From NCBI GenBank assembly GCA_043228905.1, contig JBHGNT010000020.1, forward strand, positions 1,860,001 to 1,924,000: DNA of 64,000 nt, written 5' to 3'. The translations under genes were made by a program, and so were the position numbers. Positions 910 to 48,991 of the stretch are shown piece after piece. Each line of letters opens with the position of its first letter. Positions within the stretch are counted from its first letter, which is position 1. The notes under the pieces are model-generated. The model was not told where the DNA came from and did not search any database. It worked only from the letters and a program-made list of their open reading frames with translations. Source of the stretch: Azolla caroliniana (Eukaryota > Plantae > Polypodiophyta).

Positions 910-912
910 GCG

Positions 913-7847: not shown

Positions 7848-7857
7848 CAAGGGTCGG

Positions 7858-7899: not shown

Positions 7900-7901
7900 T
7901 G

Positions 7902-27151: not shown

Positions 27152-28635
27152 GTTTTGACATCTAGTTGAATCAACTCCAAGTTTTCGGCTGCCACTACGC
27201 CCAGCATGAAGTGAAGGGTGGTCATTTTCACCACTGGTGAAAACATTTCGTCGAAGTCAACGCCGTATTCCTGTCGAAAGCCCTTTGCTACTAATCTGGC
27301 CTTGAATTTCGGGGTGGCCGAACCAGACGTTGTCGCGTTGTTACGCGCATGCGTGGAGAAAGGCGGGACCACGGGGGTCTTGGACTAGGGGGTGACGGAG
27401 CGTAGGAAGTCGTACTTCACCGTTTCTGGGGCATCCCAGAAGGACACCGGAAGCAACCGAAGGGAGAGGGAGAAAGAGAGGGAGCGCGCGCTTGACACTG
27501 ACTCGCGCACACACACACACACACACACAAGCCGACCCGACTCACGCCCTTATGTACAGGAAACGCAGGAAAGGGGAAGCACCCGACACCAACAGAGACA
27601 CCAATATACACAGATAGACGCAAATGTATATATATAAAAGGAGGAATACATTCTCGACTTCGAGCCGGACCAAGGTAGGTTACAGTAGTCGTCGGCTACC
27701 AAGCCATAGGTCGGGAGCTCACGGGCTTGTCGTGCCGAGCGGGGACTTGCGCAGGAGACGAGCTGAAGCCAACCCTAAGCGAACACGAAGGGGAAGAAGA
27801 AGAAGAAGAAGAAGAAGAAACCCTAAATCTAGCGATATACACTCTAACGCAAAATGGGCAACCCCTTTCTCAAAGGGCGCTCCCTTCCTTTTATAGAACA
27901 AGGAGAGGGATGTGTTACAATGTGGGATAAATCCCGACTTACATGGGATCGTCTGTCCCGACTTGACTACTCTTCGGCGCCATAAAGGTGCCCTCGTTAT
28001 TCACACTAAATGTACAAGGGTGAACACACATGCCGCACCCCGCCGATGTAGCCAATGTTTCCCGGTTTCCGCCTCTGGTCGAAATTCTTCACGACATCCG
28101 CCCCCACCTAACCGCACGTCCACCGGTACGTGCCAAACCCGGTGAAGGGTGAGATATTTCGGCCGGTGAGAAACCGGTCTTCCGTAATCCGCACCCCGGC
28201 TCGCTGCCGGTTTGATCCGTCAGCTTTGGTTCTTCCTTCGCGCTTACCTCCCCGTAGGCTCGTTCGACCCGTCGATGGGTCCTCTGCCGTGATCTCCGTA
28301 GTACGCGTACTTCCGTTGGCCCTTGTTTGGCCGTATGAACGCCCCGCTCCCCGCCGTATGCCCGATGTCCTCCGTTGAGGAACGCCCGTAGTGGCCCGCC
28401 TGGCCTCCCGTTTTCGTGCTGCTGCAACAGGTCCTGAGTCCTCCACTTGCCATCGTCCCCTCGCCCCCACCAGCTTGTCACCCCGGGCTTGCCGTGTCAG
28501 TCTTCGCTACTTCGACGGAGCTACCGAGATCTACGAAGCGAGTGTGGAGGATCCTCCTCCGGCCTCTCTTGCCATCCCCTAACTCCGACCCTATGCAGTC
28601 CACTAGGCACTTGTCACCTCGTTCTCGGCACCTCC

Positions 28636-28721
28636 TGTTGGAGACAAGGTCGTCTATGCGGAAGATCAAGAAGCATTCGATTCTGTTCTGAGTACCTGCG
28701 TATGGCAGTTTCCAAGATCGT

Positions 28722-28762
<41 letters not shown>

Positions 28763-31700
28763 CACAAAAGACTTTCTATTCAATAGAAACAATAATACAA
28801 CCAACCTTACAAAAAGGTTACAAGGTCACTTTATATAGTGACAAACTTAGGGCAACTACCCTTTATGCTAATTACACAAATGGCCCAAACTTGAGCTATA
28901 CAAAAGGATAGTGTGAATACGTCCATTATACACTTGTATTCGACACTCCCCCGTAATGGGCGTATACATGGGTTGTCTAAGATTACAGGTATAAACCTAG
29001 GTTCTCGGACATATCAGTTTTGTTCGAGTCGGCAGTGTCCGAAGGCAGAAGACCGGACTGGTCGGGTCGGAAGAGTTGAAGCCGATCATTAAGGAACTGA
29101 TGTCGGTTGTCCGAAACCATCCTGCGCTGTGTCCGGCTCTAACCGGACTGGTTTGTCGTTACGCCCATCTGATGCCGAAGAGACCGAAAGCGGTCTGCCG
29201 AAAGACACTTGGTCATTCCATCTGCGACATTGTCGGTTGTGGATATTTTCTCTAGACCGATTTTCCCTGAAATGACGCAGTCCCGAACGAAGTGATATCG
29301 AACGTCGATATGTTTGGAGGCGTTGTGGTGAACCGGATTTCTCGACAAGGCAACAGCACCTTGACTGTCGCTATAGACAACTGGAGCCGAGTCATGGTCG
29401 ACTTGCCGAAACGTGTGCGCCAGCCGGCCGAGCCACAAAGCTTCTTTTGCAGCGTCGGACGCAGCTACATATTCTGCTTCGGTCGTTGAGGTCGCTGTGC
29501 ACTCCTGAAGTTTCGACTTCCACGAAATTGCTCCATTGCCGAATTTGAAGCAGTATCCAGTTGTTGATTTCCGACTGTCTATACAGCCGGCGAAGTCCGA
29601 GTCGGTGTAACCGACTACGCCTGAGATTGAGTTCGGACCGAAAAGAATGCCGTGGTCTTTTGTGCCAGCTAGATATTTGAACACATGCTTGACTGCGTTC
29701 CAATGCGATCGGCCAGGATTGTGCATAAATCTGCTGACGACTCCTACGGCATGAGAAATATCAGGCCGTATCGCGACCATCAGGTACATAAGGGAGCTGA
29801 CTGCCGGTGCATACGGTACCGACTTCATATCTTCCCCCTCCGGGCCGGATGTCGGGCAGTCTCGCTGAGAGAGCCGAAGATTCATGGGGAGCGGGGTTGA
29901 AGCAGATTTGGCTGATTGCATGTTGAAGCGTTCCAAGACACGTCCGATATAGTCGGTCTGAGACAAGAAAAGATGTCGTTTATCGCGATGCCGACTAATC
30001 TTCATGCCAAGTATGTGTCGTGCCGGACCGAGGTCCTTCATGGCAAACTTCAACCGCAGTTGCCGAATGAGATCGGCAAGTTCGCCCGCGTGGCGTCCAG
30101 AAATTAGCATGTCGTCCACGTAAATGATGAGGAAGATGGGTGAGCCATCTTGAGCTGTGTTGGTAAAAAGACAATGGTCCTCATCGCTTTTTGAGAAGCC
30201 GATCGATTGGATGAAGTCGTCGAACTTCTTGTACCATTGTCGCGGTGCCTGTTTGAGGCCGTATAGACTCTTCCTGAGTCGGCAGACTAGATGTTCTTGG
30301 CCAGTTGCCACGAAGCCTTTTGGCTGCTCCATATAAATTTCCTCTTCAAGATCACCATGGAGGAAGGCTGTTTTGACATCTAGCTGAATCAGCTCCAAGT
30401 TGTCGGCTGCCACTACGCCGAGTAGAAAACGAAGGGTTGTCATTTTCACCACTGGTGAAAAAATCTCGTCGAAGTCGACGCCATATTCTTGTCGGAAGCC
30501 CTTCGCAACTAATCTGGCCTTGTACTTTGGGGTGGTCGAATCAGACATCTCTTTTAGTCGATAAACCCACTTGCAAGGAAGAGCACGTCGGTTCCTAGGT
30601 AATTCGACCAGATCCCAAGTCTTGTTTGCCCGAATGGAGTGCATTTCCGACTCCATCGCCAGATGCCAGGTGGCTGAATCGACAGATGTCGATGCTTCTT
30701 CGTAAGACGTCGGTTCGCCGGCGTCGGTGAAGAAAATTCCAGGAGAATACCTCTCCGGAGGTTGCGACAGTCTCTCGGATCGTCGAGGTATGAGTGGACT
30801 GGTCGCATCGGGTATCGAGGTCGGATGGTCCGAAAGCGAATTATTCTGCTGTGCCGAGTCAGAGTTGTCCGAGTCGGTAGTGTAAGGTTCAGCTACCCGT
30901 GAAGCTGACCGTGTGTTAAGAGCGGGGCCTTCTTGAAGGGTCGGCACATCGGAAAATGTTACCCTTCGGACTTCGATCGGTTTTTCGACTGATGGATTCA
31001 TAGCCGACTCGTTGAACACAACGTCCGAACTTCGAACGATTTGTCTGCGTTCGGGGTCCCAGAGTTGGTATCCCATTTCGCCGTCTGATCCATATCCAAG
31101 GAAAATGCATTTCCTGGACCGAGGTGCAAGTTTTCGGCGATCATCTTTCGGAATAAGGGCGTATGCCTCGCATCCGAAGATCCTCAGCTTGTCATAATTC
31201 GGCTTACTGCCGATCCATAGTTCCTGAGGAATTTGAAGTCCTAGAGGTCTGCTTGGCGACATATTGATTATGTGTACTGCCGTGAGTAGAGCCTCTGCCC
31301 AGAAGCCATCCGACAGTCCGGAGTGTTGGAGCATGGAAACTATCCGTTCTTGGATTGTCCGATTCATGCGTTCGGCAATCCCGTTTTGCTCCGGACTGTG
31401 TGGTGCCGTAAATTCACGTCGGATGCCGCGTTGTCGGCAGAATTTGACGAATTCTTCTGATTTGAACTCTCCCCCATTGTCGGTCCGAAAGCATTTCAGT
31501 TTTCGGTCGGTTTGATTTTCTACCATAGCGAGCCAATCGGAGAAGATCGAGAAGACACGATCTTTGGTGCGAATTGGATAAGCCCACACCTTTCGAGTCG
31601 AATCGTCAATAAAACTGACGAAGTAAGAGGCACCGCCGAGAGACTGATGCGGCATTGGGCCACAGACGTCCGAGTGGACTAAATCGAGAGGTCTCGTTTC

Positions 31701-33626
31701 TCTTGGTGCTGATGTCGGGTGTGATGCGGCTGCTTGTTTGCCATACTGGCAATGCTCGCAGAATTGATGGTCGGAGAAGGAGAGTTTAGGGATGTATCCG
31801 GCTCTAGATAGATGCGTAATGCCGGCCTTGCTGAGGTGTCCTAATCTTCTGTGCCATAGTGATGACACAGGAATATCCACCAAAAACAGGTTACCCTCTC
31901 TGAGCGTAACATGTAACGGATACAGTGAGTGTATCTTGGGTCCTCTAGCAAGCAGGAGGTTCCCCCTGTGGAGTGTCCACCCTCCCGAAGAAAAACCGGC
32001 ACGAATGCCGTCTTCATCTAGTTGTCCGACTGAGATCAATGGCCTTGAGAGCTCGGGTACATGTCGGACATTGTGAAGTACAAGTGTAGAGCCACCTGCA
32101 AGGTTGAGCTCTACTGTGCCGATTCCAATGATGTCACAGTGTTGCGAGTTGCCGACTCGAACTGAGTCGGAGTGACGGATCGTATATTGCCGAAATTGGG
32201 ATCTATGAGGAGTCACGTGAAATGACACGCCCGAATCTAAGAGCCATGTGCTCGATTCTTCAGTCGTGAGCAGAACTTCTGATCCGACTGGATTTTCGAT
32301 TGACAGTATATTCGGGTCGTTTGGTAGCACATCAGCTGAGAAGCTGACGTAATTGATCTCCTCATGCCGGCCACTCTTCTTGTCTGATTTTTGAGACTTG
32401 TCGTTCTTGTTCTTGAGTGCGCGGCAGTCGGCTTTGATGTGTCCGGGTTTCTTGCAATAGTTGCAGATTCGATTATCCCGTGACTGGCTCCGTCTTCGCT
32501 GATTGTTCGGCTGCCATGAGGAATCTCTTCCTCGTATGTTCGATCGGTCTGTCGAACCTTGTACTACATAAGCGTCGTCTGTTGAGTCTTTGGCGAAAGA
32601 CTTTCTCCGAGCTGCTTCGGTCAGGATTGCGCTCGTGACTTCGGAGTATTTAACAGCTGTGGTTGACGCGTTGCACACGGTTGTGACGAAAGTTTCCCAT
32701 GATGAGGGAAGGCTACTCATGAGTATCATTGCTCTGAGTTCATCCTCGATTGCCGTCCCCTGAGATGAGATTTGGGAGCTTATGCTTTCGTACTCATTGA
32801 GATGTGCTTGAACCGAATCTGATTCTTTCATTCGCAAGTTGTAGAGGCGCCGAATCAGAAACATCTTCGTTGCAGCGACCTTCTTTTCGTAAGTGTCCGA
32901 CAGAGTTTTCCACAGTTCGAATGCTGTCGTACACGATTGCACCGTAAAGTATACCGATTCCGATAGGTGTATTGTTGAACTTGCTCGAATTGACTCGGGT
33001 AACTTGAGGGACAGAACCGACTGGTCTTCCCGAATGTTGCCGAGTCGGAGTGAGCCCGGTTCGCTTCCGAATATATATGCCAAATACCGATTATTGAAAC
33101 CGATTGTCTGGACCGATTCTGCTTCGGGTGACTGCAGCAACGAGAGAGACGGATCCAACTGATCCTCCCGAATGTCGATCAGCCGGATGAAGCACGAATT
33201 GGGGTTGTTGTCTTGAGAACGATCTGCACCGAGTGGTTACAATGAGCGGCGAGCAGCGTTTGATGACCTCTTCCGATGCCGTTTAACCGAGTGGAGCACG
33301 ATCGTGTCAATGTTGCACAAGGGGATTTCACCTCGAGCGGTTACGATCACAAGAAACAGAGTACAACCGGCTGGCTTACTCCAAGCGAAGATGATCTAAC
33401 GCGATGAGATGCAAGCCTCGTTTTTCTTCTTCTTCTCTCTTCTTCGAATGACGCAGGAAACCGAATGCTGTGCAGGCTGAGACGACGGCCGACAGCGGAT
33501 TGAAGGACCGAATACTGTGCAGGCTCTGATACCAAATGTTGGAGACAAGGTCGTCTATGCGGAAGATCAAGAAGCATTCGATTCTGTTCTGAGTACCTGC
33601 GTATGGTAGTTTCCAAGATCGTGCAC

Positions 33627-33669
<43 letters not shown>

Positions 33670-33852
33670 CACAAAAGACTTTCTATTCAATAGAAACAAT
33701 AATACAACCAACCTTACAAAAAGGTTACAAGGTCACTTTATATAGTGACAAACTTAGGGCAACTACCCTTTATGCTAATTACACAAATGGCCCAAACTTG
33801 AGCTATACAAAAGGATAGTGTGAATACGTCCATTATACACTTGTATTCGACA
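28636..33852 (-). mobile_element. young Ty1/copia element D nested in C1
   Basis: LTRs 28636-28945 and 33537-33852 (about 2 substitutions plus a GA-repeat length difference), TSD CCTCC, PBS-iMet 33523-33534, PPT at 28946. Confidence 0.96.
29139..33158 (-). CDS. Copia gag-PR-INT-RT-RH polyprotein, uninterrupted 1339-codon frame (true gag start appears deleted)
   Basis: CNYCKKPGHIKADC, LLDSGVS, WHRRLGH...CEHC, RTDNGGEF, YVDDML, KHIDVRYHFVRD. The predicted start is TTG, not ATG. Confidence 0.9.
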   Translation of the reverse strand: MDPSLSLLQSPEAESVQTIGFNNRYLAYIFGSEPGSLRLGNIREDQSVLSLKLPESIRASSTIHLSESVYFTVQSCTTAFELWKTLSDTYEKKVAATKMFLIRRLYNLRMKESDSVQAHLNEYESISSQISSQGTAIEDELRAMILMSSLPSSWETFVTTVCNASTTAVKYSEVTSAILTEAARRKSFAKDSTDDAYVVQGSTDRSNIRGRDSSWQPNNQRRRSQSRDNRICNYCKKPGHIKADCRALKNKNDKSQKSDKKSGRHEEINYVSFSADVLPNDPNILSIENPVGSEVLLTTEESSTWLLDSGVSFHVTPHRSQFRQYTIRHSDSVRVGNSQHCDIIGIGTVELNLAGGSTLVLHNVRHVPELSRPLISVGQLDEDGIRAGFSSGGWTLHRGNLLLARGPKIHSLYPLHVTLREGNLFLVDIPVSSLWHRRLGHLSKAGITHLSRAGYIPKLSFSDHQFCEHCQYGKQAAASHPTSAPRETRPLDLVHSDVCGPMPHQSLGGASYFVSFIDDSTRKVWAYPIRTKDRVFSIFSDWLAMVENQTDRKLKCFRTDNGGEFKSEEFVKFCRQRGIRREFTAPHSPEQNGIAERMNRTIQERIVSMLQHSGLSDGFWAEALLTAVHIINMSPSRPLGLQIPQELWIGSKPNYDKLRIFGCEAYALIPKDDRRKLAPRSRKCIFLGYGSDGEMGYQLWDPERRQIVRSSDVVFNESAMNPSVEKPIEVRRVTFSDVPTLQEGPALNTRSASRVAEPYTTDSDNSDSAQQNNSLSDHPTSIPDATSPLIPRRSERLSQPPERYSPGIFFTDAGEPTSYEEASTSVDSATWHLAMESEMHSIRANKTWDLVELPRNRRALPCKWVYRLKEMSDSTTPKYKARLVAKGFRQEYGVDFDEIFSPVVKMTTLRFLLGVVAADNLELIQLDVKTAFLHGDLEEEIYMEQPKGFVATGQEHLVCRLRKSLYGLKQAPRQWYKKFDDFIQSIGFSKSDEDHCLFTNTAQDGSPIFLIIYVDDMLISGRHAGELADLIRQLRLKFAMKDLGPARHILGMKISRHRDKRHLFLSQTDYIGRVLERFNMQSAKSASTPLPMNLRLSQRDCPTSGPEGEDMKSVPYAPAVSSLMYLMVAIRPDISHAVGVVSRFMHNPGRSHWNAVKHVFKYLAGTKDHGILFGPNSISGVVGYTDSDFAGCIDSRKSTTGYCFKFGNGAISWKSKLQECTATSTTEAEYVAASDAAKEALWLGRLAHTFRQVDHDSAPVVYSDSQGAVALSRNPVHHNASKHIDVRYHFVRDCVISGKIGLEKISTTDNVADGMTKCLSADRFRSLRHQMGVTTNQSG

Positions 33853-34706
33853 CCTCCCTTGTGCCGTCTTCTGCTTCCTTCGTTCGGCACCACCCGTGCC
33901 GAACACTGTCCCGTAGTCACGCTTCGATCCGACCCGCGATGGCCACTGGCAAGACTCTTGTTCCGCCCAAGGTGTGCCTTTCCGGCCCGACATACCTCCT
34001 TGTGTTTGCCCCTACCGGCTCCTTCCGAAACCGTAACCGGCCGGTGAGGGTTTCGCACTTCGTCCGCCCCGTCTTACCGGCTCCCGAACCGATATCTCGT
34101 GTCACCGGGTCCCGTTCCCTGCCGCCATCGTCCTTCTCCCTAGGTCTCACTCTGCCACGTTGGCCGAGCTGCCGAGGTCTCCAGATCGGTGTGAGGGTCC
34201 CATAGGACTGGTCTTCGTTTCGTCGGTTGTCGAGATCTGGGTGTCTTCTGCGTAGTCGGGTCCCGTTTCCCACCGCCACCATCCTTCTCTCTCGGTCTCA
34301 TGTTGCCACGTTGGCCGAACTGCCGAAGTCTCTGGTTCGGTGTGGGGATCCCGTAGGACCGGACTTCCTTACGCCCACTGACCTTACTGGAAGGCTCTGA
34401 TGCCGATCTTGCCAGACTCGTTCCAAACCTTTGATCACCTTCCTTTCCAATTCCCGACCTTCGCCTGGTCGGTCTTTCTCCCCATGTAAAAGAGGGCGGC
34501 TCGTCCCGCACCCTCTTTCGTATCGGCACTTTCATGCCGAATCCGGCCCCGATCGAACAATCCACGACTGGATTCTGCTCCATCCGCATCGGAATGCCGA
34601 TCTCCTCGTGCCGCGTCCGTCCTCAGCCTCCTCACAGGCCGTTTCCCATCCATCTTCGTTGGCATCATGCCAGGACTCCTCGGTACCGCCATCCATCTCC
34701 TCGGTC

Positions 34707-35954
34707 TTACATGGGCATACGGGCCCGAATCGGGTCCGAGGGCTTTCGTCCGTTCCTTCCCCGTATCGTCTCGCCGGTGATTCTTGGTCTTTCGCAACCG
34801 CCTTCCTCCGCTTGGGACTCACGTGGGCACTCGGGCCCGACTGCCTTCATCTCGGGAGCAAGTGTGGGAAGACACAAAGAATCGCCCGTCCGTTTTACGC
34901 CCTTGTCCGTAGCCACCGACTCTTCGTGGTCAGCGGTCGTCTTCTTACCGATCGCGCAAGCCCCACCTGGGCTTGCTTCTCCGATTTCCGGGGTTTTGGG
35001 CTGACACGCCCGAAACCGCTGGTCCCAACTATCCGGTTCCGCGATCTGTATCTCGGCCTCGTCCTTGGCCGTTCTATCTCCGCAAGTCGAGAGGGCGTTT
35101 TGTTCCGCACCCTCTCCTGTGGTACCGTTGTACCAATCTTCCGCCGTCACGTGGGGCAAGTCCGTCTCTTCAGTCTCGGCTTGCGGCCTTGGTCTTTCCT
35201 CTTCCTCGAGCATCACCTCAAGAGTTGCGTACGCCTCCGCAATCCTGGCCCCAACGCCGACCCTTGCCGACTCTCTTTGCCGTTCGGCCTCTTCCCGCTA
35301 TGATGGCACGCCGTCGCGTACCTTCCTCTTAGCCTTCTCGGCTCGCTCGTTGTCTAGCCGTTGGAACACCCTTCCGACCTTCGACCAGGCCTCCGTAAGC
35401 CCATTCGCTCCATCATCGTCTTCGAGCTCAATCCCGATGTCCTCCCGTTCCGCTCGGTCGATCGACCTGACGAACAATAGGACCTTGTCCGCCCCCACCA
35501 AACCTTGTTCCCGCTCCGGGAGCCGAGCAAGCCGTCGCTCAAACTCTCGGAACGCCTTGGTCGCGTCCCGGTGGGTCTTTGCCGATGCTACCCACTGGTC
35601 AAAGTTGTGTCGTCCCCGTCTCTTCCGCCGTCCTCCGTATGCCTTCAGGAGCGCCTCTTCGAAGGCCTCCCACGAACTATGAGCCTCACAAAGCTCCTTT
35701 ACTTCCGCACGCATCCGGACAGCTACGACCCAACAGAAGAACTCCAGCCTCAACGACTCGTCTACGCCACGCTCCTCCATTTCCGCATTGTAGGCTTCCA
35801 AGTAAGATGGGACTTTGTCCCCGTTGAAACGGCCGACTCTTTCGACCACTCGCTCCACCGCTTGTTGCGCTGCTTCTCGCCTCATCACCACTCGTGCCGA
35901 CTCCAACACCACTTCGGCCACCATCACCGCGAGGTCATCGTCTTCCGACTCCAT
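34707..35954 (-). pseudogene. gag-like ORF of C1 (internal stop at 35298)
   Basis: Starts just after the PBS; RFNGDKVPSYLEAY...SWEAFEEALLKAY resembles a retrotransposon gag capsid region; homologous ORF in C2. Confidence 0.6.
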
Positions 35955-35970
35955 CCTCCCTTGCCGCCTT

Positions 35971-35987
35971 TCACGTCGGGTTCACCA
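35971..35987 (-). other. primer-binding site, tRNA-Trp
   Basis: Minus strand TGGTGAACCCGACGTGA, complementary to the recalled plant tRNA-Trp 3' end TCACGTCGGGTTCACCA; near copy at 44397-44413. Confidence 0.8.
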
Positions 35988-37864
35988 AATATGTCGCGTT
36001 GTTACGCGCGTGCATGGAGAAAGGCGGGACCACGGGGGTCTTGGACTAGGGGGTGACGAAGCGTAGGAAGTCGTACTTCACCGTTTCCGAGGCATCCCAG
36101 AAGGACACCGGAAGCAACCGAAGGGAGAGGGAGAAAGAGAGGGAGTGCGCGCTTGACACCGACTCGCACACACACACACACAGGCCGACCCGACTCACGC
36201 CCTTATGTACTGGAAACGCAGGAAAGGGGAAGCACCCGACACCAACAGAGACACCAATATACACAGACAGACGCAAATGTATATATATAAAAGGAGGAAT
36301 ACATTCCCGGCTTCGAGCCGGACCAAGGTAGGTTACAGTAGTCGTCGGCTGCCAAGCCGTAGGTCGGGAGCTCACGGGCTTGTCGCGTCGAGCGGGGTCT
36401 TGCGCAGGAGACGAGCTGAAGCCAACCCTAAGCGAACACGAAGGGGAAGAAGAAGAAGAAACCCTAAATCTAGCGGTATACCCTCTAACGCAAAATGGGC
36501 AACCCCTTTCTCAAAGGGCGCTCCCTTCCTTTTATAGAACAAGGAGAGGGATGTGTTACAATGTGGGATAAATCCCGACTTACATGGGATCATCTGTCCC
36601 GACTTGACTACTCTTCGGCGCCATAAAGGCGCCCTCGTTATTCACACTAAATGTACAAGGGTGAACACACATGCCACACCCCGTCGATGTAGCCAATGTT
36701 TCCCGGTTTCCGCCTCTGGCCGAAATTCTTCACGACAACGTCTCCTTAACTCGATAGACCCACTTACACAGAAGAGCACGTCGATTCTTCGGTATTTCGA
36801 CCAAGCCTCAAGTGTTGTTTGCACGAATGGAGTTCATTTCGGATTCCATTGCCAAATGCCAGGTGGCCGAGTCGGCTGATGCCGATGCGTCTTCGTATGA
36901 CGTTGGTTCTCCGGTGTCCGTAAAGAAGATATAGGAGAGTATCTCTCTGGGGGTTGTGACAATCTCTCAATCATCGAGGTATGACTTCGCTTGGCTTTTG
37001 GACAGATTGATGCATGGTCGATTCATTGAACACGACATCCGAACTTCGGACGATTTGTCTGTGTTCGGGGTCCCAGAGTCGGTATCCCATTTCGCCATAT
37101 GGTCCAAAACCGAGGAAAATACATTTCTTGGACGTTGGTGCAAGTTTGCGGCGATCATCTTTCGGGATGAGGGTGTACGCCTCGCTTCCAAAAATCCTCA
37201 ACTTGTCGTAATTCGGCTTACTGCCGGTCCATAATTTCTAAGGGATCCGAAGTCCTAGAGGCCTACTCGGCGACATCTTGATTATGTGTACTACCATAAG
37301 TAGGGTCTCTGCCCATAAGCCATTCGACAATCTGAAGTGTTGGAGCATGGAAACTATCCTTTCTTGAATTGTTCGATTCATTTGCTCGACAATTCCATTT
37401 GTTATCCTTTAGGCTAAACAAGCCCTAACACACGGTGTCCCTATGGAACACTTCACCAAAGGGTGGTACGGTGAGATTTGGATGGACCGTGGTGTCGAAT
37501 GGGTCTTAACCGGTTACTAACCGGCACTGTTAATGATCGTAACACACGCGTAAGATTAATTATATTAAGCACAGGACGATAACCAAATAGACACTAGACA
37601 ATATGTAAAACAACAACGCTTCTATTAATTATCCGTCCCTGATTACATTCTTGTTGGGTCCTTTTATAGGTCTCTAACTGAGTTACAAATCGGTGCCAAC
37701 CGGCAACGATCCGGTCTGGATCCGAATCAGCATACTGATTCTGGTCCGTCCGCCCGCTTCTCAAAATAACATAATATTTATTAATTACAACTCCCTATCC
37801 CTAATTAAATACCCCTTTCGCATTCTGGACTCTAATTGGCCCTTTGGCCTTGCCGGCCAACACA

Positions 37865-37906
37865 TAGCAGGCCCGTGGGACAATACATTGTACGTCGAAC
37901 CCACGA
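37865..37906 (+). other. inverted PBS / tRNA-Arg 3'-end copy in place of the PPT (A2, degenerate)
   Basis: Element strand TCGTGGGTTCGAC-GTACAATGTATTG-TCCCACGGGCCTGCTA, 2 nt before the LTR TG. Confidence 0.7.
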
Positions 37907-37916
37907 TTAGCCCTTT

Positions 37917-40112
37917 TCAATCGTCCATCAAAATGTCCAGAATGCTTTGGTCCAAGGGTTCTAGAGGTTCTTTGGGTAGTTGCTCCGTTTGTTGTGGTGG
38001 TTGCTCTTGCTCTTGCTCTTGCTCTCCGGCCTATTCCTCCTTTCTGGCTCCAGTCCCTTCCGGGCTTCCGTCTCCGACTCATCTATTCTGGGCTCCTCTT
38101 GCTACTGACGTCCGGCTTGCACTGGCTCTTGCAGGTTGGCTACCTTCGGTTGCTCCACTTGAGCTACATTTGGCTGGCTCCCTTTGGTTTCGGTTGCGTT
38201 CGGCATCTACTCCGAAGATTGCTCTTCATCATTAACGTTAATTGTCGATGTTCTTCTAGCCGCCGTTTGCCATCTCTGCTCGTGTTCGTATTGCTCGAAC
38301 TGGAGTTGGGTATCAAGTTGGTCGTCATTCATTTGTCCCACTAGTCGGCCCACTACCACCAGTTGTTCTCCGGCCAAGGACATGAAGTCATTTGATAACT
38401 CCTCCCTTATGGTCACAATGCTTTCCGCATCCAGTTTGTAGAAGTTATCGCCATCCTTTTGCCGGTTCTCCGCATCCGCTCGCAGGACTTGCAACTCAGC
38501 TGCCTGTTTTGCCCATTTGGACCACCACTGTACTAAACTTTCTTCAACTAACCTCTTCGTCCGGTCCCTCCATGTCAGTACAATGTCTCGAATATGGCCA
38601 AGTCCCATCTTTGACTTATCCTCCGCGTCCTGCTTTTCATCCTTTAATTGCTTTATGAGGATCGCGGTTACCTCAACTTGTCCCTGATACTGCATCAGTT
38701 GCGTCTGATAAGTTGTTTGAACTCTGTTCAAAGCCATCTTTGCTCGTTCCATCTCCTCATGATGCTGCCGGGTAAGCTCCATTCTGTCATTCGCCGCTTC
38801 TGCCAGCATCTTTGCCGCTTCGACTCCCTTGGTCCTTTCTTCTGCCAATGCCACTGCCGTCCTGTTGACTTTCATCCCGGAGTTCTCGCATCTTCTCTTG
38901 TTTGCCAGTCACCTTCTGCCATCAATTTCTTGTGTTCCACCTCTAGGTGATTGTGATCCCGGTGCAACCTGTCAAAATCCTCTGTTTTCTATTTTAGCCT
39001 CTGATTGACTTGGCGTCGGGCCCGGTCCTTCTGTTGTCGGAGTTCTTCTTGGAACTGCTCGATCTCGACTTCCACTGATCGCCGGAGTTTGTCCTTTTCT
39101 TGCAACAACTTTTCTTTTTCTTCCTTCAATTGGTCATATGCTTGATGACCCTTCCGTAGATTGTCCTCGGCTTTTCAGAGGTTCTCTCCCGTTTTCCGTT
39201 GTTCCTCCTCCGCCACCTTCTTCAGGTCTCGTTCTCTAGCCCTTAAGGCCTCTTGGGCTGCTAATTCCTCTCTTAGAGTGGCAAGTTCTTGTTCTTGTGC
39301 CTTAATTGCATCTGGTGCTATTTCAGTTACCAACATCTTATTGGTCTGTACATTCACCGGTGCCACCGGTTTCGGTAGTATTGGTCCTTCTATGACCTGC
39401 TTAGCCACCTCTGCTTTGGCTTGCGCAATTTCTTCTTCCATGCTCCGGATCCTCGACCGGGCATTCTCAAGTTCTTCAGTTGTGGCGAACAACCGGCCCC
39501 CCTGTGCTCTCTCCTCCATTTCTATTTGGCACACGACCCCAGCCACCTGTTCGTTGATCCACCGTAGCCATTGATTGTCGGTGCCTTGTTGTCGTGCCGG
39601 TTCTGGTTGTGGCGTGGCCACTGTTCTCGCCTGAAGCCCTTTTTGGATTGTTGACTACAACAACAACTCCTGCTCTTGCGGTGCTTACAGCCTCGATGAG
39701 GTAGGCAATTCGATTACCGGTTCTTGAACCACCAACATTGTTGCTTCTTGCCGCACATGTAAATCTTTCATCAATTCTGGTTGAACCAGTTCCGCCTCCT
39801 TCCTTGGCTCCCATCCCTCGGAATGGGGTGTCAGTGCGTTGTTCTTCACCAGACCCAATTCGTCCCCCTTCTGCTCCGCATCGCTACGCTTCTGGCGATG
39901 TAGGAGGTTATTGGCGGGGTCTTCCTCTGCCTCCTCCTCTTGGGTTCTGATATTGATCTTCATTGCCAAGGGGTCCGGCTCTTGTTCCGGTAAGCGCAAC
40001 TTGATTTTAAGAGGCCTTATTGGTGGCTCCACCGGTGTCTCTGTCTCTGCTTGCCTCTTCCGGCTAGGCGGTTCTTTCCCTTGTTGCGAGGTACTTCCCT
40101 CTTTCCATCCGG
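37917..40112 (-). pseudogene. extra ORF of A2, C-terminal coiled-coil part
   Basis: ORFs 39685-40158, 39175-39621 and 38207-38875 are homologous to A1 5800-7847. Confidence 0.8.
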
Positions 40113-40116
40113 GCGT

Positions 40117-40243
40117 TGTCACGTTGTTACGCGCGTGCGTGGAGAAAGGCGGGACCACGGGGGTCTTGGACTAGGGAGTGATGGAGCGTAGGACGTCGCG
40201 CTTCACTTCTAGGGCATCCCAGAAACACGCCGGAAGCAACCGA

Positions 40244-40294
<51 letters not shown>

Positions 40295-43200
40295 ACACCG
40301 ACTCCCGCACACACACACACGCACACACGCACACATAGCCCAACCCGACTCACGCCCTTATGTACGGAAAACGCAGGAAAGGGGAAACACCCGACAACAA
40401 CGAAGACGCGAATATACACAGATAGACGCAAACGTATATATGTATATAAAGAAGAATACATTCCCGGCTTCGAGCCGTTCCAAGGTAGGTTACAGTAGTC
40501 GTCAGCTGCCAAGCCGCCGTCGGGGAGCTCACGGGCTCGTCGCGCTGAGCGGGGTCTTGCGCAGGAGACGAGCTGAAGCAAACCCTAAGCGAACACGAAG
40601 GAGAAGAAGAAGAAGAAGAAACTAACTCTAAACCTAACGGTATACCCTCTAATGCAAAATGGGCAACCCTTACACAAAGGGCGTTCCCCTCCTTTTATAG
40701 AACAAGGAAAGGGATGCGTTACAATGTGGGACAAATCCCGACTTACATGGGATCGTCTGTCCCGACTTGACCACTCTTCGGTGCCATAAAGGCGCCCTCG
40801 ATATTCACACTAAATGTACACGGGTGTGTATACACGCTGCACCCCGCCGATGTAGACAATGTTTCCCGGTTTCCGCCTTTGGCCGAAATTCTTCACGACA
40901 TCCGCCGCCACCTAACTGCACGTCCACTGGTACGTGCCAAATTTGGTTGAAGGGTGAGAGATTTCGGCCGGTGAGAAACCGGTCTCCCGTGATCCGCATC
41001 TCGGCTCGTTGCCGGTTTGATCCGTCGGCTTCGAGTCTTCCTTCGCGCTCGCCTCCCTGTAGGCTCGTTCGACCCGTCGATGGGTCCTCTGCCGCAATCT
41101 CCATAGTACGCGTACTTCCATTGGCCCTTGTTCGGCCATATGAACGCCCCGCTTCCCGCCGTATGCCCGATGTCCTCCGCTTGAGGCATGCCCGTAGTGG
41201 CCCGCTTGGCCTCCATTGTCCAATCGTGATGTCCCGATGGTGTTTCGCGTTGCCTTCGTCCTTCCACCGCCACCTTCCTTCTCCATGGTCTTACATCGCC
41301 GCGTCGGCTCGAACCGCCATGGGCTCCGGAATAGCGTGGAAGATCCCTTTCCGACCTGATCGTGCATCGCCGCTTACCCGCGTACCGGTGTCCTTTGCAT
41401 CCGAGGAACACCCCGTAGTAGCCCGCTTGGCCCTTCTCGTCTTCGTGCTGCTGCAATAGGTCCCGAGTCTTCCGCTTGCCATCGTCTCCTCGTCCCCACC
41501 AGCTTGTCACCCCGGGCTTGCCGTGTCAGTCTTCGCTACTTCGACGGAGCTACCGAGATCTATGAAGCGAGTGTGGAGGATCCTCCTCCGGCCTCTCTTG
41601 CCATCCCCTGACTCCGACCCTGTGCAGTCCACTAGGCACTTGTCACCTCGTTGCCAGCACCTCGTGTCGTCCTTCTCTTCCTTCGTTCGGCACTGCCCGT
41701 GCCGAACACTGTCCCGTAGTCACGCTTTGATCCGGCCCGCGATGGCCATTTGCGAGACTCTTGTTCTATCCAAGGTGTGCCTTTCCGGCCTGACACACCT
41801 CCCCGTGTTTGCCACTATCGGCTCCTTCCGAAACCTCGTGTCGTCGGGTCCCGTTCCCTGCTGCCACCGTCCTTCTCCCTCGGTCTTACGTTGCCACTCT
41901 GGCCGAACAGCCGAAGTCTCCGGATCGGTGTGAGGGTCCCATAGGACCGGACTCCATTTCTATGCTTGCCGAAATTCGGGTGTCTTTTGTTTGAGTCCCT
42001 CCCGGACTCTCCTCGTGTCTTCCGCATAGTCGGGTCCCGTTTCCCGCCGCCACCTTCCTTCTCCCTCGGTCTTACGTTGCCACGTTGACAGAACAGCCGG
42101 AGTCTCCGGAACCGGTGTGGGGATCCCGTAGGACCAGACTTCCTTACGCCCATTGCCTTCGTCACCTCGCCACCACCGTCAGTATCTTGGTCTTACGTCG
42201 ACCGCGTTGCCGACTGCCGAAGTCTCTAGAACCGGTGTGAAGGATCCTCCGTAGACCGCCCATCTGTAGTCATGCCTTCGTCACCTCTCCACCACCATCA
42301 GTATCTTGGTCTTACGTCGACCGCGTTGGCAGAACAGCCGGAGTCTCCGGAACCGGTGTGGGGATCCCGTAGGACCGGACTTCCTTACGCCCATTGCCTT
42401 CGTCACCTCGCCACCACCGTCAGTATCTTGGTCTTACGTCGACCGCGTTGCCGACTGCCGAAGTCTCTAGAACCGGTGTGAAGGATCCTCCGTAGACCGC
42501 CCATCTGTAGCCCCTTTGCCTTCGTCACCTCGCCGCCACCGTCAGTATCTTGGTCTTACGTCGACCGCGTTGCCGACTGCCGAAGTCTCTAGAACCGGTG
42601 TGAAGGATCCTCCTTGGGCGTTCATCGCCTTCTTGACCCTGTCCCGAGTTGTCCCTTTCCGCATGCCGAGAGGGCGTTTTACTCCGCACCCTCTCCCGTA
42701 GTATCGACGTACCAAGTCCTCGGCCTCTTCGTAGGCCTGCTCTCTTCCTCCCTCCCGGAATGGTCATCCGGGAGTCCGCTCCGCCCGGTTCTCGTCCGGG
42801 TCCGTTCGTCCTTCTCCGGATTGCCGAGTCCCGTTCTCCTGTCGCCACCGATCTCTCTTATAGGACTCACGCCGGCACTCGGGCCTACAGTCGGATCGGT
42901 GTAAGGAATCCCATAGGACCGGCTTTCATTCTATTTCCGAATCTCGACCTTTGCCCGGTCGGTCTTTCTCCCCATGTAAAAGAGGGCGGCTCGTCCCGCA
43001 CCCTCTCCCGTATCGGCACCTTTATGCCGAGTCCGGCCCCGATCGAACGATCCACGACCGGATTACGCTCCACCCGTATCAGAATGCCGATCTCCTCGTC
43101 TTGCGTCCGTCCTCGGCCTCCTCGCGGGCCGTTTCCCATCCGGCTTCGTTGGCATTGTGCCAGGACTCCTCAGTACCGCCATCCATCTCCTCGGTCTTAC

Positions 43201-45150
43201 ATGGGTATACGGGCCCGAATGCCGAGTTCTCCGGAATTGGGTCCGTGGGCTTTCGTTCGTTCCTTCCCCGTATCGTCTCGCCGGTGATTCTTGGCCTTTC
43301 GCCGCCGCCTTCCTCCGCTTGGGACTCACGTGGGCACTCGGGCCCGACTGCCTTCGTCTCGGGAGCAAGTGTGGGAAGACACAAAGAATCGCCCGTCCCT
43401 TTTACGCCCTTGTCCATAGCCACCGACTCTTCGTGGTTGGCGGTCGTCTTCTTACCGATCGCGCAAGCCCCATCTGGGCTTGCTTCCCCAATGACCGGGA
43501 TCTCAGGCTGACACGCCCGAAACCGCTGGTCCCAACGTTCCGGTTCCGCGATCTGTATCTCGGCCTCGTCCTTCGCCGTTCTATCTCCGCAAGTCGAGAG
43601 GGCGTTTCGTTCCGCACCCTCTCTCGCGTGGGGCAAGTCCGTCTCCTCAATCTCGGCTTGCGGCCTCCGTCTTTCCTCTTCCTCGAGCATCGCCTCGAGA
43701 GCTGCGTACGCCTCCGCAATCCTGGCCCCAATGCCGACCCTTGCCGACTCTCTTTGCCGTTCGGCCTCTTCCCGCTGTGATGGCACGCCGTCGCATACCT
43801 TCCTCTTAGCCTTCTCGGCTCGCTCGTTGTCTAGCCATTGGCACACCCTTCCGACCTTCGACCAGTCCTCCGTAAGCCCATTCGCTCTGTCATCGTCTTC
43901 GAGCTCAATCCCGACGGCCTCCCGTTCCGCTCGGTTGATCGACCTGATGAACAATAGGACCTTGTCCGCCCCCACCTAACCTTGTTCCCGCTTTGGGAGC
44001 CGAGCAAGCCGTCGCTCGAACTCTCGGAACGCCTTGGTCGCGCCCCGATGGGTCTTTGCCGATGCTACCCACTGGTCGAAGTCGTGTCGTCCCCGGCTCT
44101 TCCGCCGTCCTCCGTATGCCTTCAGGAGCCCGCATGCATCCGGACAGCTACGACCCGACAGAAGAACTCCAACCTTAACGCCTCGTCTACGCTACGCTCC
44201 TCCATTTCCGCGTTGTAGGCTTCCAAGTAAGATGGGACTTTGTCCCCGTTGAAACGGCCGACTCTTTCGACCACTCGCTCCACCGCTTGTTGCGCTGCTT
44301 CTCGCCTCATCACCACTCGTGCCGACTCCAACACCATGTCGGCTACCATCTCCCCAAGGTCGTCGTCTTTCGACTCCATCCTCCCTTGCCTCCTTTCATG
44401 TCGGGTTCACCAAATATGTCGCGTTGTTACGCGCGTGCGTGGAGAAAGGCGGGACCACGGGGGTCTTGGACTAGGGAGTGATGGAGCGTAGGATGTCGCG
44501 CTTCACTTCTGGGGCATCCCAGAAACACGCCGGAAGCAACCGAAGGGAGAAAGAGAGAGAGCTTTACACCGACTCCCGCACACACACACACGCACGCACG
44601 CACACACACACACAGCCCAACCCGACTCACGCCCTTATGTACAGAAAACGCAGGAAAGGGGAAGCACTCGACAACAACGAAGACGCGAATATACACAGAT
44701 AGACGCAAACGTATATATGTATATAAAGTAGAATACATTCCCGGCTTCGAGCCGTTCCAAGGCAGGTTACAGTAGTCGTCAGCTGCCAAGCCGCCGTCGG
44801 GGAGCTCACGGGCTCGTCGCGCCGAGCGGGGTCTTGCGCAGGAGACGAGTTGAAGCAAACCCTAAGCGAACACGAAGGAGAAGAAGAAGAAGAAGAAACT
44901 AACTCTAAATCTAACGGTATACCCTCTAATGCAAAATGGGCAACCCTTACACAAAGGGCGTTCCCCTCCTTTTATAGAACAAGGAAAGGGATGCGTTACA
45001 ATGTGGGACAAATCCCGACTTACATGGGATTGTCTGTCCCGACTTGACCACTCTTCGGCGCCATAAAGGCGCCCTCGATATTCACGATGCACCCCGCCGA
45101 TGTCGACAATGTTTCCCGGTTTCCGCCTCTGGCCGAAATTCTTCACAACA
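40117..45150 (-). mobile_element. non-autonomous gag-only LTR element C2 (tRNA-Trp PBS, 4-bp TSD)
   Basis: LTRs 40117-40900 and 44417-45150, TSD GCGT, PBS 44397-44413, gag-like pieces 43079-44379. Confidence 0.9.
42065..42612. repeat. ~242-bp tandem duplication with ~120-bp subrepeats in the C2 interior
   Basis: CAGAACAGCCGGAGTCTCCGGAACCGGTGTGGGGATCC recurs near 42089 and 42330; CAGTATCTTGGTCTTACGTCGACCGCG occurs four times. Confidence 0.8.
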
Positions 45151-45154
45151 GCGT

Positions 45155-45852
45155 GTGCTTGGCCAAGAGTTGCTACCATTTTGAAGGTTTGTTGGGCGTG
45201 ATCTCCGTTACTCGAACTCGCTTCTTAGTCTTTACTGGCTCCACCGGGGCACCAAGAGAGTCAGCCATTGAGCCACAATCATCCATAATTTCTTGCCGTT
45301 TTGCACTGATTCTATCGCCTTCTGCAAGCAATCGGCGATGATTACAGACCAATCCACTTGCACCCCTGTGTATGTAGCAATGATGAAACCGGCTTTGTTC
45401 TTTGGCATTGTCGAGGGTCGAGGGTACACGAACCCATACTCGTGGAGGACATGAGCCACTTCTCTGAACAAGGGGTCCTCGTTGCCCTGTGTCCGATGAG
45501 CCTTGCTGGCAGGGGAATACTCGCCAAAAAACTTGGTTAACGTTTCCAGAGAAGGGTTCTCGATGGAGTAGATGCCCCCTTCCGACAATACGAATAGAAC
45601 GCGGATGGCTTCCTCCGTTATGACTTCCATGTCGATTTTATGCACAACTTCTTCTGCTTCGTCATGCGGTGGTGCCTCTGTTATCCTCAGGAAGCCTCCC
45701 AACCCATGTTGGTTGGACCACTTCTTGGCTGTTTCGGAAAGTGCCATAGGTTCCATCTTGTCGTCTGGTTTTGCGGGGGTGGGTAGGGCCGATGTGCTTG
45801 TATGTGCTTCTTGCATCCATCTGCTCACTTGTATTGTCCTTTGTGCTCTCAA
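45155..45852 (-). pseudogene. extra ORF of A2, N-terminal domain
   Basis: MEPMALSETAKKWSNQHGLGGFL...LHEYGFVYPRP...VDWSVIIAD aligns to A1 5074-5600. Confidence 0.82.
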
Positions 45853-48765
45853 TGCTCTGTGTTCGCGAAATGAGAGAGACTCTACGAGGTGGAGGTTTCA
45901 TGTTCCCGCGCATGCACGTCGTGTACTATAATAGCAACTGTGTGACACGTGGTGCGCTTTAACTAGGCTTTAAATAGCAGTGCACGCCTTTTCGAGGTGT
46001 CTGTTCGCTCCTCGCCTATGCATGATGATCTTTTTATTTTATTTTAGAGAAATGATCATTGTATTCATTCATTCCCCATAAGGGGTTAAATAGGTACAAA
46101 GGGGTAGATACACAAGGGTGCAAGCCCCTTGGCCATTCACACCTAGTCACCCACTCACACCTATTTGTATCCACCACACTCACACTTAAATTCACTCTCA
46201 TAATCGTATAACATTACACATGCATATCAACACACTACATTTTTCACCCTCATTTATCACACTTATAAATCACCCATACATCTCGTCGTACGGTAACACC
46301 ATTTTGCTTCGGACTTTGGGGTGCCGTAAATTCACGTCTTATGCCACGTTGTCAGCAAAATTTGACGAATTCCTTTGATTTGAACTCTCCCCCGTTATTG
46401 GTCCGAAAGCATTTCAATTTTTGGCCGGACTAGGTCTCAACCATAGCGAGCCAATCAGAGAAGACCGAGAACACTTGATCTTTAGTTTTGATCGGATAAG
46501 CCCACGCCTTCCGAGTTGAGTCGTCAATGAAGCTGGCGAAGTACGAAGCACTACCAAGAGACTGATGTGGCATAGGACCACAAACGTCCGAGTGGACCAA
46601 ATCGAGCGGACTTGATTCTCTCAAGGCGGATGACAAGTGTGTTGTGGTTGTATGTTTGCCGTATTGGCAATGCTCGCAGAACTGATGATCCGAGAAGGAG
46701 AGTTTGGAGATGTATCCGGCTCTAGATAAGTGCGTGATGCCAGCCTTGCTAAGGTGTCTAAGTCGTCCATGCAGGAGATTCCCCTCTAAGTGTGATGTGC
46801 AAAGGATACAATGAGTGTATCTTCGGTCCTCGAGCAAGCAGGAGATTCCCCTTGTGGAGCGTCCACCCTCCTGATGAGAAGCCATCACGAATACCCTCTT
46901 CATCCAATTGTCCGACTGAGATCAGTGGTCTGGAGAGCTCAGGCACATGTCGGACATTGCGTAGTACTAATGTAGAGGTACCCGCAAGGTTGAGCTCTAT
47001 CAAGCCGATTCTAATTATGTCACAATGTTGCGAATTTCCTACTTGAACTGGGTCGAAATGTCAGGCCGTGTAATTCCAGAATTGGGATCGATGAGGAGTC
47101 ACATGAAAGGACGCACCCGAATCTAAGAGCCATGTGCTCGATTCTTCAGTCGTAAGCAGAACTTCTGATTCAACTAGGTTCTCAATTGTTAGTATGTTTG
47201 GTCTGTTTGATAATACTTCGGCTGTAGAGCCGACATAGTTGATGTCCTCATGTAGGCCACTCTTCTGATCAGCTCGTTCAGCTTTATCATTTTTTGCCTT
47301 GAGTGCAGGGCAATCAGCTTTGATGTGTCCAAGTTTCTTGCAATAGTTGCAAAATCGATTATCCCGGGACTTGCTCCGACTTCGTTGGTTGTTCGGCTGC
47401 CGTGAAGAACCTCTTACACGATTGTTCGATCAGTCAGTCGAACCTTGTACTACGTAGGCGTTGTTGGCTGAATCGTTTGCAAACGATTTTCTCTAAGCTG
47501 GTTCAGTCAGAATTGCACTCGTGACTGAGGAGTACTTGACGACAACTATCGACGCATTGCATACGGTTGTAATAAAAGTTTCCCTAGAAGGAGGGAGACT
47601 ACTCATAAGTAGCATTGCTTTTAGTTCATCCTCGATAGTCATCCCTTGGGCCGCAATTTGGGAGCTTAAGCTTTCATACTCGTTCAGGTGTGCCTGGACT
47701 GAGCCAGACTCTTGGTGCTGAATCAGGTATATCTTGGTGGTGGCGATCTTCTTTTTGTAAGTGTCTGAAAGTGTCTTCCATAGTTGGAAGGCAGTCGAAC
47801 ACGATTGTACTGTGACGTACACAGACTCCAATAGGTGCATTCGAATGGTGGCTCGGACAATTCTGTCGAGCTTTTCCCATTCAAGCGGCTTGTATCCTTC
47901 TTGAGGGTCTTCATTCTCAATGGGGTCAATTTGCCCCTTGACTATTAAATAGTCCTACATCTGCTCCTTCCAGAAGTTGAAGTTCGATCTGTTGAACTTC
48001 CTTAGACTCATCTCTAACGAGCTGGATGTTGATGCCATTTATGTTGGTTTAATAGACTTTGTCCGGAGTTAGCTACGAACTGTGGTGGAGTGCAACAGCT
48101 AGGCTTACTCAATGTCGTTTTAGCTGGACTTGGGCACAAATCATGTCGGTTTCGAATATCTAGATGAATCTTATTCGGAGTGGCTACAGTCAACTGACTT
48201 GGTCGAATTGAACCGTATTTGCCAGACACAGGTTGTGTCAGTTTCAAATATTGATTTTCCGAGATTTCCCAACACGGATTATGTGTGATTCTCCAGGTGA
48301 ATCCTTTTTCGGGTAACTGCACCACTGAGAGGGACGGAGCCAACTGGTCCTCCCGAGAATCGTTCAGCCGAATGAAACATAGATTTGGGGTTGTCCCTGG
48401 AGTCGTGTTTGCTTCGAGTGGTTACGACGAGTGAGGGGATAACGTCAGATGACCTATTCGATTTCCGCCTAACCGAGTGAGGCACAGGTGTGGCCTTCAG
48501 TTGTCTCTCTTCGCCAAATGTGATTTCAACAGGAGTTGCTAATCGAGATCTTCAAGGTGTGCAAGAGAAGAGTTGTTGATGGAGGTTAGATAGATGGTGG
48601 CGGTAGAAACAAACAAAACCACACTCTGATACCATATGTTGGGAGTGCCGTCATCTGATGCGGAACAAGATCAACGCTCCTTGTGTGGAAGATCATAAGT
48701 AGATACAAGATCACAATGTATTGATGACAATGCAGACAAAAAAAACATGAATGCAACTAGTGCGT

Positions 48766-48802
<37 letters not shown>

Positions 48803-48991
48803 AGGCACAACTCAATAATCTTGCAATAGCCACAAAAAGGCAACAACTATAACTAGGTTACAAAGTCAATTTATATATTGACTGACTTAGGGCAATTGCC
48901 CTTCTCACTATTTACATAAGTAGACTAAGCCTAGTGTGTACAAAGGAGATGGTGTGAATACGTCTATTAGAAGCCTGTATTCAACAATCCC

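What the first reader, a model, noticed from the sequence alone, without database searches (positions are those of the whole stretch)
37400..46298. Single insertion with a perfect TSD but two different LTR types
Seen: CCATT flanks both ends and the host Copia integrase rejoins across it. The 3' end is an A-type LTR (37400-37862). The 5' end (46298-46046) is the U3 half of a B-like LTR (TGTTACC..GAGATGTA...GTATCTACCCC...TATTTAACCCCTTATGGGGAATGAATGAA), fused directly to the A-family post-pol region, so gag-pol is missing. Normal reverse transcription gives identical LTRs. Inference: intermolecular plus-strand transfer or a template switch between co-packaged A and B-like genomes before integration. 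This would independently link the two families that share the inverted PBS.
Basis: partly seen in the sequence, partly recalled or inferred. Interest (0 to 1): 0.72.

Follow-up and report, generated by a model that had tools for sequence, protein, structure and literature searches.

The report
One-off two-family retrotransposon hybrid
This dead plant jumping-gene copy has end-repeats from two unrelated families under one perfect insertion scar, likely because a copying accident joined the two before they inserted; it looks like a one-off, not a new family.

Summary
CCATT flanks both ends and both copies map to the same five bases of an intact Copia copy, so it is a true target-site duplication. 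The 3' LTR is A-lineage. The 5' end is the first 253 nt of a B-family LTR (92.7% to its nearest copy) and is unrelated to the A LTR. None of 21 B LTRs from metagenome contigs continues into A sequence, and no listed contig bridges the junction, so an intact two-segment family is not supported. The locus itself was not confirmed by reads. Best reading: one integration of a chimeric cDNA, likely made by premature plus-strand transfer from a B genome to a co-packaged A genome (about 0.5; about 0.75 for any pre-integration route). Double insertion plus deletion, and break repair with B filler, are not excluded. Template-switch chimeras and premature second-strand transfer are known; I found no paper on a two-family, unlike-LTR case under one TSD. 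The scan noted a similar hybrid, and other one-off aberrant insertions, elsewhere in this genome.

The parts
37395..37399 (.). Target-site duplication, left copy (CCATT)
   Evidence: Maps to 31381-31385 of the intact Copia copy
37400..37862 (-). Complete A-lineage 3' LTR (subfamily A2), TG...CA, 463 bp
   Evidence: Aligns end to end with the A1 LTR 7902-8336
37863..37909 (-). 3' cis element shared by A1, A2 and B at the place of the polypurine tract ('inverted PBS' of earlier notes; tRNA identity not tested here)
   Evidence: B copy is 88% to A1 over 42 nt and 80% to A2 over 41 nt
37910..40116 (-). 3' part of the A-lineage post-pol extra ORF, broken by stops and frameshifts
   Evidence: 66% DNA identity to A1 5727-7732; tblastx; the one stop-to-stop frame scanned (38210-38908) had no Pfam hit
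40117..45150 (-). Nested younger C-family LTR element; LTRs 40117-40900 and 44417-45150; PBS-like motif from 44412; 4-bp TSD GCGT
   Evidence: LTRs 97.1% alike, K2P 0.030; motif
45155..45756 (-). 5' part of the extra ORF (ATG at 45756), with stops further in
   Evidence: 67% DNA, 60% protein identity to A1 from 5074
45757..46045 (-). A-lineage post-pol leader, opening with an A-rich tract at the junction
   Evidence: Aligns to A1 from 4725 onward
46046..46298 (-). First 253 nt of a B-family LTR (U3 with TATA-like box at 46092-46086, likely plus the start of R), cut at the start of the CT tract
   Evidence: 92.7% to L018, 90.8% to L016, 82.9% to window B
46299..46303 (.). Target-site duplication, right copy (CCATT)
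   Evidence: Maps to 31381-31385 of the intact Copia copy
20278..48986 (-). Host Ty1/Copia element, interrupted at the end of the integrase core and by other nested elements
   Evidence: LTR K2P 0.076, flanks ATCCT/ATCCC; homology blocks
28636..33852 (-). Young intact Copia copy used as the empty-site reference
   Evidence: 1365-aa ORF with gag, integrase and RT domains; TSD CCTCC
1..8336 (+). Element A1: Ty3/Gypsy-order pol, post-pol ORF, 3' cis element, LTR 7902-8336 (comparison copy)
   Evidence: RVT_1 before integrase domains; sequence
8609..11650 (+). Element B: non-coding internal region, LTRs 8609-9151 and 11111-11650 (comparison copy)
   Evidence: LTRs 99.4% alike; no RT hit in 4 of 4 B internal regions tested

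Best explanation
This is a dead, 3.86-kb piece of Ty3/Gypsy-lineage DNA that carries the left end of a B-family LTR and the right part of an A-lineage element under one 5-bp target-site duplication, and it likely inserted once, as an already chimeric cDNA. Inferred steps: an RT-less B RNA was packaged with an A2 RNA; both were reverse transcribed; the B plus strand, which starts at the first base of U3, stopped early near the CT tract and jumped to the A2 minus strand at the A-rich leader behind pol; filling in gave a molecule with a B U3 end and an A2 U5 end, both TG...CA, which integrase inserted in the Copia integrase gene. A C-family element later inserted into it. With no PBS, no gag-pol and no repeated R region it is predicted to be unable to copy itself.
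For: Shown: exact TSD and host continuity; both outer ends are natural LTR termini; the two LTRs are unrelated; 0 of 21 B LTRs run into A sequence; no listed contig bridges the junction, and summed depth drops to its minimum there (746 against 4,661 and 188,291 in X1); B has no RT (4 of 4 internals) and shares the 3' cis element with A, which fits dependence on an A-lineage particle. Known: premature second-strand transfer gives proviruses whose deletion starts inside the 5' LTR, 20 of 23 large deletions in one HIV-1 assay (PMC12657518, passages); co-packaged retrotransposon RNAs recombine often (PMC5668417, passages). A second A-lineage/B junction lies in contig L008, unverified and without a testable TSD.
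Against: One locus only, not confirmed by reads. No clear microhomology at the junction could be shown, because the parental A2 and B copies are not in hand. It needs two minus strands from two families in one particle and a between-molecule second transfer; the papers read describe second transfer through PBS pairing (PMC6088434, passages) and recombination within families, not this. B LTRs also break near the CT tract in 2 of 21 contigs (L001, L017), so a DNA-level break at this place is possible. Cross-packaging of B by A2 is inferred only.
Confidence: 0.5

Rival explanations
1. Two-donor integration: one intasome used the U3 end of a B cDNA and the U5 end of an A2 cDNA; the two free inner ends were then joined by host repair with loss of most of B and of A2 gag-pol.
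For: Gives one TSD with unlike ends directly. Integrase inserts two separate DNA ends in concert in vitro (PMC5329712, passages).
Against: Needs a repair deletion of several kb; I saw no in vivo report in the listing (2 papers).
Confidence: 0.15
2. Minus-strand jump plus solo-LTR formation: the A2 minus strand jumped from the A-rich leader to the 3' end (R or poly(A)) of a B RNA; plus-strand priming at B's 3' cis element made B-U3 + A2 ORF + A2 LTR behave as one giant LTR; recombination between the two giant LTRs left this solo copy with the TSD.
For: The junction lies 47 nt from the start of the TATA-like box and 18 nt after an AATGAA-containing motif, and is followed at once by an A-rich tract; this spacing fits a poly(A) site (recalled plant poly(A) spacing, not tested).
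Against: The default product would have identical A2 outer LTRs, as in the complexes of PMC1950507. The A-rich tract is a normal part of the A leader. No RNA shows B's 3' end (one RNA-guess contig, not reaching the junction).
Confidence: 0.1
3. Two separate insertions into the same 5-bp site (B directly beside A2, same orientation), then a deletion from B's 5' LTR to A2's leader.
For: Double insertion at one site is documented in Drosophila (bioRxiv 10.1101/158386, passages). B is very high-copy. Deletions and broken LTRs are common here.
Against: That paper ascribes LTR-element tandems to LTR recombination and double insertion to DNA and non-LTR elements. Needs two rare events; B 5' flanks are varied and show no fixed target.
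Confidence: 0.1
4. An ordinary A2 insertion later suffered a double-strand break; repair deleted its 5' LTR and gag-pol and captured 253 nt of B LTR DNA as filler, using the shared terminal bases.
For: A-lineage and B LTRs share their first bases (4 nt with A2, 8 nt with A1). Filler DNA in plants and capture of Ty1 cDNA at breaks in yeast are known (PMC1976456, passages).
Against: The deletion must end within the first 4-8 nt of the LTR and the filler must begin at B's first base.
Confidence: 0.1
5. Misassembly, or an intact family whose LTR holds both segments.
For: No laid run showed this locus itself.
Against: A misjoin would have to link two loci at the same five host bases; an internal collapse would still leave unlike ends. 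0 of 21 B LTRs carry A sequence; A1 and A2 both start their LTR right after the 3' cis element, with no B segment.
Confidence: 0.05

Closest known systems
Template-switch complex LTR insertions in Triticeae, rice and maize (Sabot and Schulman 2007, PMC1950507; whole text read)
   Same: Pieces of two parents under one TSD, read as one integration of a chimeric cDNA from co-packaged RNAs.
   Different: Those have three LTRs, two full internal regions and highly similar outer LTRs from close relatives. Here the outer LTRs are from unrelated families, one is cut short, and there is no PBS or gag-pol.
Defective HIV-1 proviruses from premature second-strand transfer (PMC12657518, passages) and asymmetric LTRs (PMC9278108, abstract)
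   Same: 5' LTR broken upstream of the PBS and joined to a downstream position; intact U3 start.
   Different: There both parts are from one virus; here they are from two families, which needs a between-molecule transfer.
Recombination between co-packaged Onsen/Ty1 family members (PMC5668417 and PMC6894440, passages)
   Same: Pairwise mixing of two parental RNAs during reverse transcription.
   Different: Within one family, by homology, with identical LTRs as the expected product.
Chimeric non-autonomous elements in sugar beet, e.g. TRIM-08 with LTRs donated by TRIM-01 or TRIM-05 (PMC13570524, passages; supplements not read)
   Same: LTRs from different families in one structure, ascribed to template switching.
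   Different: Described as additional LTRs in rearranged or tandem copies; the passages do not say whether any has unlike outer LTRs under one TSD.
Tandem TEs by double insertion (bioRxiv 10.1101/158386, passages) and plant tandem LTR structures (PMC11899658, passages)
   Same: Can place two elements between matching outer TSDs.
   Different: Those keep an inner TSD or a shared LTR of one family; neither is present here.

Membership tests
Single integrase-made LTR insertion | Exact short TSD with the host continuous across it | tested here: met
Single integrase-made LTR insertion | TG...CA natural LTR termini at both outer ends | tested here: met
Canonical LTR retrotransposon copy | Two LTRs of common origin | tested here: not met
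   285 of 500 shuffles reach the LTR-LTR score
Canonical LTR retrotransposon copy | PBS after the 5' LTR, and gag-pol (or a family internal region) | tested here: not met
   B segment runs straight into the A leader; the only PBS-like motif in the interval is that of the nested C element
Sabot-Schulman template-switch complex | Flanking TSD | tested here: met
Sabot-Schulman template-switch complex | Highly similar outer LTRs, internal third LTR, two internal regions | tested here: not met
Propagated hybrid (non-autonomous) family | The B/A junction recurs in many copies | tested here: not met
   0 of 21 B loci; 0 of 25 listed pieces of 718 and no joints. Contigs drop rare variants, so a few copies are not excluded.
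Premature second-strand-transfer product | Deletion starts inside the 5' LTR, upstream of the PBS, with the U3 start intact | tested here: met
Premature second-strand-transfer product | Chimera existed as cDNA before integration; microhomology between the parental copies | not testable with these tools
   No whole genome held; parental copies not in hand
Ty3/Gypsy (A lineage parent) | RT before integrase in pol | tested here: met
   For A1 only; the hybrid has no pol. Clade below Ty3/Gypsy not tested.

The most novel reading that the evidence does not exclude
In this PPT-less lineage, plus-strand strong-stop DNA passes between co-packaged genomes of different families often enough that unlike-LTR, single-TSD insertions form a recurring class. 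This locus would then be a genomic record of cross-family packaging and of a between-molecule second strand transfer, and a route by which these families swap LTRs.
Probability: 0.15. Interest if true: 0.65.

Novelty: new variant of a known kind. Interest (0 to 1): 0.33.

Why it matters
If the join preceded integration, it shows that the RT-less B family shares particles with an A-lineage family and that one integrase accepts both families' ends. It would also be a rare natural case of LTRs that differ from birth, which defeats LTR-pair dating and LTR finders. As a single dead copy it changes little by itself; it matters mainly as a testable pointer for a genome-wide count of such hybrids in the PPT-less lineage against ordinary lineages.

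Tried and rejected
No whole genome is held, so no genome-wide hybrid search and no look at A1's 5' LTR or any A-lineage PBS. Sequencing runs: 18 listed, best share of words 0.33, all short-read contigs, no long reads; no RNA holder listed. The locus itself was not seen: none of the 32 pieces listed (of 13,894) is a long near-identical match; a hole proves nothing. The RNA-guess run X17 laid one contig that does not reach the junction, so B's poly(A) site stays unknown. A-type motif scans: 5 viral contigs with a 17-mer, none with similarity to A; 0 hits for the cis-element pattern in viral and prokaryotic contigs. The Atlas look-up of the extra ORF gave no answer; its function is left open. ARAGORN found no tRNA gene in the window, so the tRNA match of the cis element was not tested. 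TSD length of B could not be read from metagenome contigs: flanks of L007, L016 and L019 do not match, as expected if LTRs were collapsed in assembly. Rejected: divergence of once-identical LTRs (no similarity, while host LTRs, which are older, differ by K 0.076); the nested C element as cause (own TSD, A ORF continues on both sides); chance likeness of the last 12 nt of the B segment to host sequence as a sign of a wrong boundary (B copies start at the same base). Du et al. 2010 on LTR swapping was not held and is not relied on. Literature: searches (listings only; one gave 0 papers) showed no title or abstract on a two-family unlike-LTR insertion under one TSD; the library lacks most subscription papers, and no supplements were read (those of PMC13570524 may bear on this).
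Full report
Setting. The window is a nest of plant LTR retrotransposons. No whole genome is held. Earlier notes on this genome call the organism a fern; I did not test that.

Observation. CCATT lies at 37395-37399 and at 46299-46303. I aligned each flank separately to an intact Copia copy in the same window; both CCATT copies fall on positions 31381-31385, and the flanks match at 84.5% and 81.4% without gaps. In protein terms the right flank ends and the left flank begins at residue 618 of the reference polyprotein, at the end of the integrase core. Other Copia copies in the laid runs pass through this site uninterrupted (loose ends at 46286 and 46302). The chance of the 5-mer is about 0.001. 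This is a true TSD.

Anatomy on the minus strand. 46298-46046 is the first 253 nt of a B-family LTR; then, with no PBS, an A-rich tract and the A-lineage post-pol leader (46045-45757), the extra ORF from 45756, the shared 3' cis element (37909-37863) and a complete A-type LTR (37862-37400). The A part is a separate subfamily, about 66-67% identical to A1 in the ORF, here called A2. Without it the hybrid is 3861 bp. The two outer LTR segments are unrelated: 285 of 500 shuffles reach their alignment score, and the full B LTR is at chance level against A1 (71 of 300) and A2 (260 of 300). Nesting brackets the age between the C element (K2P 0.030) and the host Copia (0.076), far too young for once-identical LTRs to lose all similarity.

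Is it a family? An exact 29-nt B motif found 21 metagenome contigs. The hybrid's segment aligns over its whole length to several; the nearest are L018 (92.7%) and L016 (90.8%), and they start at the same base. Downstream of the motif, 19 of 21 continue into the normal B R-U5, 2 of 21 (L001, L017) enter the CT tract and then unrelated sequence, and 0 of 21 match the A2 leader. In three DNA runs, B-like contigs leave the stretch at 46046-46050 into a CT-repeat tract, A-like contigs leave at 46028-46040 into their own AT-rich leader, summed depth is lowest at 46037-46042, there are no joints, and none of 25 listed pieces (of 718) bridges the junction. So an intact family with both segments is not supported. 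Contigs drop rare variants, so a few copies are not excluded. The locus itself was not found in these runs (best share of words 0.33; no long near-identical piece among 32 listed of 13,894), so the assembly is unconfirmed. Misassembly is still unlikely: a misjoin would need two loci at the same five host bases, and an internal collapse would leave the unlike ends in place (inference).

Relation of A and B. B internals show no RT (4 of 4) and share about 42 nt of the 3' cis element with A1 (88%) and A2 (80%). That fits dependence on an A-lineage particle but does not show it. Contig L008 holds a second junction, an A-lineage leader and ORF start joined to a B internal region and B LTR; it is unverified and has no testable TSD.

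Mechanism. Normal reverse transcription, and any switch made while the minus strand grows, end in identical LTRs (PMC6894440, passages; PMC1950507, whole text). Unlike LTRs under one TSD therefore need an event at the plus-strand stage, at integration, or after it. In HIV-1, premature second-strand transfer gives proviruses broken upstream of the PBS (20 of 23 large deletions in one assay; PMC12657518, passages), the same shape as here but within one genome. I put 0.5 on the between-family version: B plus-strand DNA stops near the CT tract and lands on an A2 minus strand at the A-rich leader. Shown: termini, TSD, parentage of both parts, absence from sampled family copies. Inferred: co-packaging, the transfer, integration of the chimera. 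Two other pre-integration routes fit: two-donor concerted integration with repair (0.15; in vitro basis in PMC5329712, passages) and a minus-strand jump to B's 3' end followed by giant-LTR and solo-LTR formation (0.1; the junction is 47 nt from the TATA-like box and 18 nt after an AATGAA-containing motif). Post-insertion routes are double insertion plus deletion (0.1; bioRxiv 10.1101/158386, passages, which ascribes LTR tandems mostly to recombination) and break repair with B filler (0.1; PMC1976456, passages; the LTRs share their first 4-8 nt). Each of these needs a break or insertion exact to a few bases. These odds are judgement, not computed.

Comparison with what is known. Template-switch complexes under one TSD are known in grasses but have similar outer LTRs (PMC1950507). 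Recombination within a family is frequent (PMC5668417, passages). Chimeras with LTRs from other families occur among sugar beet TRIMs (PMC13570524, passages; supplements not read). Asymmetric LTRs are common in HIV-1 proviruses (PMC9278108, abstract). Plant tandem LTR structures keep one family's LTR (PMC11899658, passages). PMC5131818 (passages) gives microsimilarity-driven switches onto other RNAs; PMC6088434 (passages) gives the PBS-based second transfer. Searches listed no paper on a two-family, unlike-LTR, single-TSD insertion; this is a limited library and I saw listings only.

Earlier scan notes (unchecked leads). e1-10621211 reports a hybrid with two unrelated, inverted LTRs in the same PPT-less lineage; e1-10619871 and e1-10586396 report one-off aberrant insertions in Copia and chromovirus elements of this genome. 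They suggest that such accidents recur here and are not confined to the PPT-less lineage. The inverted-PBS feature itself has been noted many times and is a separate question.

Verdict. Real, correctly seen, a one-off dead hybrid; likely a pre-integration chimera, mechanism not provable from one locus. New variant of a known kind; interest 0.33, or about 0.65 if a genome-wide count shows an excess of such hybrids in the PPT-less lineage.

Noticed in passing
window 8604-8608 and 11651-11655: Element B has LTRs 99.4% alike but its flanks do not match (TCAAG / TCACA). It may be a recombinant of two B copies, or have homogenised LTRs.
   Followed up: partly
L008 about 2800-3345, counted on the strand that reads the B LTR forward: A leader and ORF start of a third A-lineage family joins a B internal region (97.8% to L011) and a B 3' LTR; A1 and B share about 6 nt at the matching place. 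A second A-lineage/B junction, in one unverified metagenome contig, with no TSD to test.
   Followed up: partly
window 40117-45150 and 27331-36737: Both C-family elements have 4-bp TSDs (GCGT, ACGT), while the hybrid and the Copia copies have 5-bp TSDs. The C internal region at 40901-44416 is tandem-repetitive; the one frame scanned had no Pfam hit.
   Followed up: partly
window 7855-7901, 11060-11110, 37863-37909: A1, B and A2 share a conserved element without a purine tract just before the 3' LTR; earlier notes call it a tRNA-Arg 3'-end copy. Already reported many times in this scan.
   Followed up: partly
L011, whole contig: Tandem B structure, LTR-internal-LTR-internal, with two different internal regions; may be real or an assembly collapse.
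   Followed up: no
window 5074-7800 and 45756-37910: The A-lineage extra ORF behind pol has no convincing Pfam match (only a weak coiled-coil hit); its leader keeps a TATA-like motif in A1, A2 and L008, which may mark an internal promoter.
   Followed up: no
window 20278-48986: A deep nest: host Copia (LTR K 0.076) > hybrid > C (0.030); and host > C (0.033) > young Copia (0.003).
   Followed up: yes
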